A stretch of DNA of 64,000 bases, from assembly GCF_009914755.1 (NCBI RefSeq), contig NC_060933.1; one strand, written 5' to 3'. The notes under the pieces are model-generated. The model did not search any database and was not told the DNA's origin. It saw only the letters and a program-made list of their open reading frames with translations. Numbering within the stretch: position 1 is the stretch's first letter; every line of letters starts with the position of its first letter. The position numbers were made by a program, and so were the translations under genes. This stretch comes from the human T2T-CHM13v2.0 reference genome, Homo sapiens. Below are positions 52,453 through 53,490 of this stretch, piece after piece.

Positions 52453-53211
52453 TTAATAAATTAATCCAGAGATTTAAAAACCACTTTTACTTTCCATGTT
52501 AAAAAAAATCAGCATACTTTCCAACTATAACCTAAAAATCTACAAAAAACTTTCCAAATTCTCAGTAAAGGAAGTATTGCAATCCACAGGAGATTATTGC
52601 TTTGTTCTAAAGACAGTTGAAACATTTTCAAATCTCTGACATTTTTTAGATCACCCTTTGCAGGGTGGGGTTCACAGAACATTTTTTTTCCTGATCATAT
52701 GACATTGCCTACATAATTTTGTGATTAAATGACTTTGGAAAATCAGGATTGAGACAAGTAAACAGTCCTATCAGAACTAAATATGTTAATGTATGGCGTC
52801 CCCAAGGGGTGTGATATGCAGCATTAATTCTTAAATGTAGATAATCATGGGACTTTAATAAGCAGATACACTTTGTGAATTACTACTTTAAATATTGGTA
52901 GTAATAGATTGCTTAATCGAACTTAAATTTAAAGAGATGATGTTGGACTTCTAGTGAATGGAAGCCAAGTATTTCTATTTACTAGAAAAATGTACATGAT
53001 CTATTATCCACAGTGAACTAGCAAACCTTCCATCTTGATATTTAGTTTTCATATTAATTGTATTATATTTCATCAGCTTACATTTTTTACTCACTAGGGC
53101 ATACTTTTATTTTTTTCATTGCAATAGCTTATTCAATATCTGCCTATTCATATATTAAGTAATAATTTTTTTTAACCTGCATCTCACACAGAGAAATCAT
53201 GAGGAAATCTC

Positions 53212-53377
53212 CACTCATTCTGGTCAGCATCACAGTTGCAGTATGTTGCAGGATTCCTGGGAGTCGATATGATTTTTTCTAATACACACATATGTTTCTC
53301 AGCATTGGGCAAATAACCTCTCCGGTAACTGTGCGCTTTTCTGGTTCTTCCCACCTACCAGCTCAACAGGGTATCAT
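53212..53377 (-). pseudogene. Decayed unprocessed exon of a CNTNAP3/CNTNAP4-like (Caspr) gene, fibrinogen-like domain
   Basis: Translates DTLLSW*VGRTRKAHSYRRGYLPNAEKHMCVLE...YCNCDADQNEW versus Caspr3/4 GTPLSWWVGRTNETHTYWGGSLPDAQKCTCGLE...YCNCDA(G/D)RNEW; intact acceptor ttcttttttcag; donor degraded to GA; TAG stop at 53355-53357. Confidence 0.88.
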
Positions 53378-53490
53378 CTGAAAAAAGAATATGAGAAAGG
53401 CGAGTCCTATTTAGCCCAACTACTCACCCCCTAATGCGGTTCTGCTTCCGCTCAGATAATGACGTAAAAACAGTTTTTTGGTGTGTGTGG

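What the first reader, a model, noticed from the sequence alone, without database searches (positions are those of the whole stretch)
53100..53400. Orphan, anciently diverged CNTNAP3/4-like exon absent from the ORF track
Seen: a 166-nt minus-strand exon with intact acceptor encoding the Caspr fibrinogen-domain motif SW*VGRT...YCNCDADQNEW. It has a nonsense codon, a 1-nt deletion, a ~10-nt insertion that duplicates ctgcaac, and a GT>GA donor loss. The downstream gagatttcctcatgatttctctg resembles, from recall, the CNTNAP3 intron start, so it looks unprocessed. It appears far more diverged than the near-identical recent CNTNAP3 segmental copies. Inference: relic of an old lost Caspr paralog or of an ancestral CNTNAP3 position. 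No other exon was confidently recognised in the window.
Basis: partly seen in the sequence, partly recalled or inferred. Interest (0 to 1): 0.7.

Follow-up and report, generated by a model that had tools for sequence, protein, structure and literature searches.

The report
Fossil sister gene of CNTNAP3
This broken exon is one piece of a dead, intron-containing copy of the nerve-cell adhesion gene CNTNAP3 that lies beside CNTNAP3 copies four times on human chromosome 9, and it likely arose and died before today's placental mammals split, so the family likely once had more members than the five known.

Summary
The exon is real and as described: 53377-53212 (-), 166 nt, AG intact, TAG stop, 1-nt deletion, 10-nt tandem duplication, GT>GA donor; tblastn E 1e-8 to 2e-10 against 0.07-0.13 on a reversed control. 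It is no orphan. Collinear CNTNAP3 intron homology runs from 52.5 kb past the window's end, decayed exons 5, 6, 8 and 11 follow, and exons 17, 18, 20 lie inverted about 200 kb away. The block occurs four times (97.7-99.4% alike), each upstream and opposite to a CNTNAP3 copy. Exon-14 changes are flat over codon positions (11/12/12) and introns differ by at least 0.39 substitutions per site, so it likely died near birth, around the placental ancestor. Trees put it in the CNTNAP3 clade and reject a simian/haplorhine or CNTNAP4 origin. By-product: tarsier has two CNTNAP3-type genes, and primate CNTNAP3 is rejected as orthologue of pig/whale/bat/dugong 'CNTNAP3'. The 3' pieces are likely already named CNTNAP3P#. 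A known kind of object (unprocessed pseudogene) with a history that my 10 paper searches did not find described.

The parts
53212..53377 (-). Decayed exon 14 (aa 694-746 of CNTNAP3/4), 166 nt
53378..53400 (-). Pyrimidine tract and intact AG acceptor
53355..53357 (-). Nonsense codon TAG in place of Trp
53273..53278 (-). 1-nt deletion somewhere in this A run
53245..53254 (-). 10-nt tandem duplication of the following 10 nt (one mismatch)
53210..53211 (-). Lost donor, GA where both paralogues have GT
52472..53211 (-). Intron 14 homology; no collinear homology to CNTNAP3 or CNTNAP4 seen below 52472 (likely breakpoint)
53400..57595 (-). End of intron 13, homologous in pieces (54605-54820, 56732-56896, 57406-57595) between Alu-type insertions
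58311..58766 (.). Dispersed repeat of about 450 bp where exon 13 and most of intron 13 are missing; strand not determined
59135..61927 (-). Intron 12 homology to CNTNAP3 (five pieces)
61999..62808 (-). Intron 11 homology (840 columns, E 1e-80); exon 12 deleted between 61999 and 61927. The relic goes on beyond the window's end (exons 11, 8, 6, 5; places in the full report)

Best explanation
The exon is exon 14 of a broken, intron-containing CNTNAP3-type gene copy that likely arose by local inverted duplication in stem placental mammals, likely died soon afterwards, and likely makes no protein today. Steps: (1) shown: exons 5, 6, 8, 11, 14 and their introns are collinear on the minus strand over about 41 kb, upstream of and opposite to a CNTNAP3 copy; (2) shown: stops, indels, a lost donor, exon deletions and an insert in exon 5; (3) inferred: it split from the CNTNAP3 line after the CNTNAP3/CNTNAP4 split and about when two other CNTNAP3-type genes separated, as a third CNTNAP3-type paralogue; (4) inferred: it has decayed neutrally for nearly all of its history; (5) inferred: one inversion with a breakpoint just 3' of exon 14 turned exons 17-21 round and put about 200 kb between the halves; (6) shown: there are four near-identical copies of the 5' half and six places with the 3' half, which follows from recent segmental duplication.
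For: Intron homology: 13 collinear pieces against CNTNAP3, 3,592 intronic columns, 69.8% identity, K2P 0.39; CNTNAP3 against CNTNAP4 3,116 columns, 67.7%, 0.425. More exons in the flank and the 3' block; CNTNAP4 exon 17 DNA meets one 3' block at 69%, like exon 14. Neutral decay: relic-only changes in exon 14 are 11, 12, 12 at codon positions 1, 2, 3 (35 of 156 sites; JC 0.27, 95% range 0.18-0.38), against 6 for CNTNAP3 and 7 for CNTNAP4. Tree of 26 proteins plus 195 relic columns: relic inside the CNTNAP3 clade at 100/100, the same under a mixture model with 17 rows. AU test of 11 placements rejects simian (p 0.0006), haplorhine (0.0004), CNTNAP4 (0.012), outside all placentals (0.012) and sister to the second tarsier gene (0.017). 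Shared derived residues: 7 of 13 CNTNAP3-wide, 2 of 9 of the non-primate type, 1 of 14 of the primate type, 2 of 17 specific to the second tarsier gene. Four copies, each upstream and opposite to a CNTNAP3 copy.
Against: The relic is a long branch (0.40-0.51) on 15% of columns; 6 of 11 placements are not rejected, among them sister to the primate type (p 0.079), to dugong (0.22) and to the boreoeutherian non-primate type (0.15). FastTree gave only 0.49 for the CNTNAP3 clade with the relic in it. Two or three of the residue counts sit on a one-column slip in exon 5. Intron distances come from BLAST-selected pieces and are floors; forced three-way alignments give 0.53, 0.75 and 0.58, on blocks partly chosen by relic-CNTNAP3 hits, and around exon 14 CNTNAP3 is closer to CNTNAP4 than to the relic. 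The flat codon pattern rests on one exon and includes the indel-rich stretch. Dating uses neutral branch lengths from memory (human to tarsier node about 0.11, to the placental ancestor about 0.19, to the therian ancestor about 0.4). That the 5' and 3' halves are one gene is inferred from equal decay, complementary exons and fixed spacing; the 3' DNA was not read. Exons 1-4, 7, 9, 10, 12, 13, 15, 16, 19, 22-24 were not found (exon 1 was in no genome-wide query that could show it). No other mammal's DNA and no expression data were seen.
Confidence: 0.75

Rival explanations
1. The relic is the human remnant of the non-primate-type CNTNAP3 gene (intact in pig, whale, bat, seal, dugong, tamandua and tarsier), lost on the way to monkeys and apes.
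For: Tarsier keeps that gene, so human ancestors had it; no closer remnant turned up in the human genome. The best tree joins the relic to that clade (34.7/70; 80, open). It shares 2 of 9 derived residues.
Against: A true orthologue must be sister to the tarsier gene: p 0.017, 2 of 17 tarsier-specific residues shared, 5 of 9 clade sites ancestral. Neutral decay of 0.18-0.38 exceeds the recalled 0.11 since the tarsier split. The 3' block's exon 17 scores 49-56 bits with human CNTNAP3 and 41-47 with the tarsier gene (queries differ in length).
Confidence: 0.15
2. The relic is a third paralogue that died only in Boreoeutheria and is still intact in some afrotherian or xenarthran, where it may be filed as CNTNAP3.
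For: Placement with dugong is not rejected (p 0.22); dugong gave the highest exon-14 identity (54%) among the 120 listed of 535 hits; the low end of the decay range (0.18) allows death after the first placental split.
Against: Over 191 columns dugong is 57% identical, no closer than pig (61%) or human (60%), and it carries the non-primate-type residues of exon 5 that the relic lacks. The relic-only search found no candidate (weak, word filter).
Confidence: 0.06
3. It marks an older position or ancestor of CNTNAP3 and CNTNAP4 together, or came from CNTNAP4.
For: Exon-14 DNA is equally close to both (72.4% and 71.8%); the first DNA search scored CNTNAP4 higher; 3 of 13 CNTNAP3-wide sites are ancestral in the relic.
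Against: Both placements rejected (p 0.012); intron 11 aligns with 296 bits to CNTNAP3 and 60 to CNTNAP4; site patterns 470 (relic with CNTNAP3) to 257 (with CNTNAP4) of 2,339 columns.
Confidence: 0.03
4. It is a primate-age duplicate of CNTNAP3 that decayed fast.
For: It lies within the recent CNTNAP3 segmental duplications.
Against: Intron identity about 70% against 98-99.5% among CNTNAP3 copies; simian and haplorhine placements rejected at p<0.001; 1 of 14 primate-type residues.
Confidence: 0.01

Closest known systems
CNTNAP3 / CNTNAP3B and their chr9 copies
   Same: Exon order, splice phase, intron sequence and clade; carried in the same segmental duplications.
   Different: About 30% diverged in introns, opposite strand, dead, lacks the primate-type residues; not one of the 98-99.5% copies.
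CNTNAP4 (chr16)
   Same: 72% identity in exon 14, intron homology, same exon-14 size before the indels.
   Different: Less intron homology; origin from it rejected.
Named pseudogenes CNTNAP3P4, P5, P7
   Same: A table puts CNTNAP3P7 27,028 bp from hg38 chr9:42,725,366-715 (PMC13286735); with a recalled hg38 position of CNTNAP3B this falls within about 1 kb of the 3' relic block at CHM13 44,305,186. CNTNAP3P5 lies beside FGF7P6 and LINC01189 (PMC8408558). The 3' halves are thus likely already named.
   Different: The mapping rests on recall and on collinearity between assemblies. RefSeq CHM13 lists no gene in this window (hub table). The names say nothing of age or of a separate paralogue. Whether GENCODE or HGNC cover the 5' halves could not be checked.
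Old unprocessed (duplicated) pseudogenes in general
   Same: Introns kept, neutral decay, repeats inserted.
   Different: Nothing in kind; it is old, likely split by an inversion, and multiplied later.

Membership tests
CNTNAP3/CNTNAP4 (Caspr3/4) subfamily | Significant sequence match to Caspr3/4 exons | tested here: met
CNTNAP3/CNTNAP4 (Caspr3/4) subfamily | Same exon order, size and splice phase | tested here: met
   Exons 5, 6, 8, 11, 14 in order; exon 14 = 157 nt less 1 plus 10. Numbering assumes one exon before the first one found.
CNTNAP3 clade | Groups with CNTNAP3 against CNTNAP4 and marsupials | tested here: met
   100/100, AU; FastTree support only 0.49
Working Caspr gene | Open frame and splice sites from signal peptide to cytoplasmic tail | tested here: not met
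   Stops, indels, lost donor, missing exons
Unprocessed (duplicated) pseudogene | Intron sequence retained | tested here: met
   13 collinear pieces, 3,592 intronic columns
Unprocessed (duplicated) pseudogene | Neutral change in coding parts | tested here: met
   11/12/12 by codon position, exon 14 only
Recent CNTNAP3 segmental-duplication pseudogene | Over 90% identity to CNTNAP3 | tested here: not met
   72% exon, 70% intron
Orthologue of non-primate-type CNTNAP3 (unitary-like loss) | Sister to the tarsier copy of that gene | tested here: not met
   AU p 0.017; 2 of 17; long branch, so not final
Orthologue of non-primate-type CNTNAP3 (unitary-like loss) | Same syntenic position as the intact gene in other mammals | not testable with these tools
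   No other mammal genome is held
Transcribed or exonised pseudogene | Exon found in RNA | not testable with these tools
   No expression data; no RefSeq gene in the window (hub table)

The most novel reading that the evidence does not exclude
Stem placentals turned one marsupial-type Caspr3/4 gene into four: CNTNAP4 and three CNTNAP3-type genes. Primates kept one with a short tail; pig, whale, bats, seal, moles, hedgehog, dugong and tamandua kept another with a CNTNAP4-like tail; tarsier keeps both; the third is this fossil, dead since about the placental ancestor. The gene called CNTNAP3 in those mammals is then not the orthologue of human CNTNAP3.
Probability: 0.6. Interest if true: 0.55.

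Novelty: new member of a known kind. Interest (0 to 1): 0.42.

Why it matters
The relic itself likely does nothing. It is a record of an extra Caspr gene, about 100 million years old by inference, and a marker for the order of events in the chr9 pericentromeric duplications. The by-product matters more: if primate CNTNAP3 and the 'CNTNAP3' of most other placentals are different paralogues with different cytoplasmic tails, orthology calls, selection scans and animal models for this autism-linked gene need a check. Rodents were not among the proteins seen, so which type the mouse has is open.

Tried and rejected
PDB sequence search with the CNTNAP4 exon: 0 matches. Protein search with the relic exon alone: no candidate passed the word filter. 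Exons 12 and 13 in the window: none; the hit at 62372-62660 first taken for exon 12 is intron 11. Exons 2-4 of the relic: none on chr9 among 52 candidates scored. Exons 22-24: none among 38 scored. A human remnant closer to the non-primate type: none among 101 scored for exons 12-18 and 99 for exons 4-10; these searches are floors. Pfam on 24 of the window's 28 stop-to-stop frames of 110 aa or more (four left out because they overlap masked repeats): one weak integrase match, E 0.0098, taken as chance. First IQ-TREE run timed out and was resumed. Two unnamed proteins (P0123, P0195) were in the alignment and left out of the trees; 10 further rows were left out for time. Papers: 10 searches listed none on this relic or on two CNTNAP3 types; most subscription papers are not in the library. 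Supplements: no CNTNAP3/4 in PMC10195156 or CNTNAP3P in PMC10002496; names without coordinates in PMC11682284; those of PMC13286735 could not be read and may hold coordinates that bear on the CNTNAP3P mapping. DNA of CNTNAP3 exons 5-8, of the 3' block and of the flank beyond chr9:41,138,000 was not read, so dN/dS over all exons and the 5' end of the relic remain open.

Full report
Observation. The matching exon of CNTNAP3 and CNTNAP4 is 157 nt and codes aa 694-746. tblastn of three full-length proteins gives E 5.6e-9, 1.7e-10 and 1.3e-8 here, nothing else under 0.28 in the window, and at best 0.074-0.13 on the reversed window.

Copies. A DNA search of the genome scored 9 of 9 candidates: four relic copies (chr9 41.097, 43.884, 78.561, 39.590 Mb), CNTNAP4, and four CNTNAP3 copies. 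The relic copies are 97.7-99.4% alike over 3.3 kb and share every lesion. Each lies 258-460 kb from exon 14 of a CNTNAP3 copy, on its 5' side and on the other strand.

Extent. Against 40 kb of CNTNAP3 (intron 9 to intron 14) the window aligns collinearly from 52,562 to 62,808 and on to 65,846; exon 12 is cut out by a deletion, and a 450-bp dispersed repeat stands where exon 13 would be. The 30 kb beyond the window hold more exons, all on the minus strand (places counted on from the window): the 3' part of exon 11 from 64,743 down, exon 8 at 90,021-89,836 (two stops, a 21-nt deletion), exon 6 at 90,867-90,757, and exon 5 at 93,299-91,703, split by a 1.3-kb insert with an old repeat whose copies elsewhere match at 68-73% (L1 by recall). 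The exon 5-8 stretch is in 4 of 4 copies. Below 52,472 no collinear homology was found. Searches with C-terminal stretches found decayed exons 17, 18 and 20 about 200 kb away on the opposite strand at all four copies (for this copy chr9:40,887,521-700, 40,891,527-749 and 40,896,505-639, plus strand) and at two more places (44.305 and 80.25 Mb), and a weak exon 21 match (E 2.5-8.7) at 4 of these 6. One inversion with a breakpoint 3' of exon 14 explains this; it is inferred, and the 3' DNA was not read.

Age and death. In exon 14 the relic alone differs at 35 of 156 sites, 11, 12 and 12 by codon position, while CNTNAP3 and CNTNAP4 have 6 and 7 private changes: no trace of selection, JC 0.27 (0.18-0.38). 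Introns: relic to CNTNAP3 K2P 0.39 on 3,592 columns, CNTNAP3 to CNTNAP4 0.425 on 3,116; both are floors, and forced alignments give higher values. About 0.2 per lineage matches the human-to-placental-ancestor distance as I recall it (about 0.19). So the copy likely arose shortly before the placental radiation and died early.

Placement. Two protein searches listed 120 of 570 and 120 of 535 hits. I aligned 28 of them and 195 relic columns and built trees on 26 plus the relic. The relic falls in the CNTNAP3 clade (100/100; the same shape; FastTree 0.49). Of 11 placements the AU test rejects five (simian, haplorhine, CNTNAP4, outside all placentals, sister to the second tarsier gene) and keeps six, best being sister to the non-primate clade (p 0.81) or outside both CNTNAP3 clades (0.59). 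Residue counts agree: 7 of 13 CNTNAP3-wide derived states, but 2 of 9 and 1 of 14 for the two sub-clades. The branch is long and its exact place is unsure.

By-product. Tarsier has two CNTNAP3-type proteins, 74% identical: one 88% to human, the other 81% to pig and 74% to human. Without the relic, trees that nest the primate type inside the other clade are rejected in two models (6 of 8 trees, p 0.0044 or less), and the two with it basal are kept. All 10 non-primate proteins and the second tarsier protein end in a long CNTNAP4-like tail; the 4 full-length primate ones end in a short tail. A review gives 21 and 44 aa for the Caspr3 and Caspr4 tails (PMC5649478, passages), which fits the primate type being the described Caspr3. 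Limits: predicted proteins, no synteny, no rodents, only the best hits seen, gene conversion not tested. No human remnant closer to the non-primate type was found, which leaves rival 1 open.

What is known. RefSeq CHM13 has no gene here (hub table). CNTNAP3P names occur in 15 papers (listing). I saw passages of PMC13286735, PMC7826827, PMC8408558, PMC8362684, PMC11682284 (supplement 78), PMC12672545, PMC5649478 and bioRxiv 10.1101/260083 (84), and supplement searches of PMC10195156 and PMC10002496; none in full. The CNTNAP3P7 distance in PMC13286735, with a recalled hg38 position of CNTNAP3B, lands on the 3' block at 44.305 Mb, so the 3' halves are likely named already. Ten searches listed no paper on the relic's age or on two CNTNAP3 types.

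Verdict. A real, very old, unprocessed CNTNAP3-type pseudogene, likely a third paralogue; a known kind of object, likely partly catalogued, with an evolutionary story that seems undescribed. Interest 0.42.

Noticed in passing
proteins P0193 and P0194 (tarsier): Two CNTNAP3-type genes in one species; primate CNTNAP3 is rejected as nested within the CNTNAP3 of other placentals, and the two types differ in cytoplasmic tail.
   Followed up: partly
G000:C17:20,558,127-273 and C17:15,713,198-332 (both minus): Two exon-4-like pieces, 71-73% to pig and peccary CNTNAP3, not found by a CNTNAP4 DNA query. Origin unexplained; could be a remnant of the non-primate-type gene or of the relic.
   Followed up: partly
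G000:C9:41,323,313-41,399,611 (+): The CNTNAP3 copy nearest the window seems to start at exon 10; exons 2-9 were not found for it.
   Followed up: no
L001-L004 and L006-L009: Relic copies pair as (41.097, 43.884) and (78.561, 39.590), but among CNTNAP3 copies 39.131 stands apart from the other three: mosaic duplication or gene conversion.
   Followed up: no
L006:1522-1680, L007:1523-1681, L009:1523-1681: CNTNAP3 copies differ by single amino-acid changes in exon 14 (W>C in L006, Y>S in L007, G>V in L009).
   Followed up: no
window 61600-61932 (-): 111-aa stop-free frame with a weak phage-integrase Pfam match (E 0.0098), overlapping intron-12 homology; likely chance.
   Followed up: partly
window 53180-53170 (-): A CAG|GT possible cryptic donor about 35 nt past the lost donor; with the intact acceptor it could allow exonisation. 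Not tested.
   Followed up: no
CNTNAP3 exon 13 (chr9 about 39,146,250-550): Visibly more GC- and CpG-rich than CNTNAP4 exon 13, and only about 30-37% identical in protein to it and to the non-primate type.
   Followed up: no
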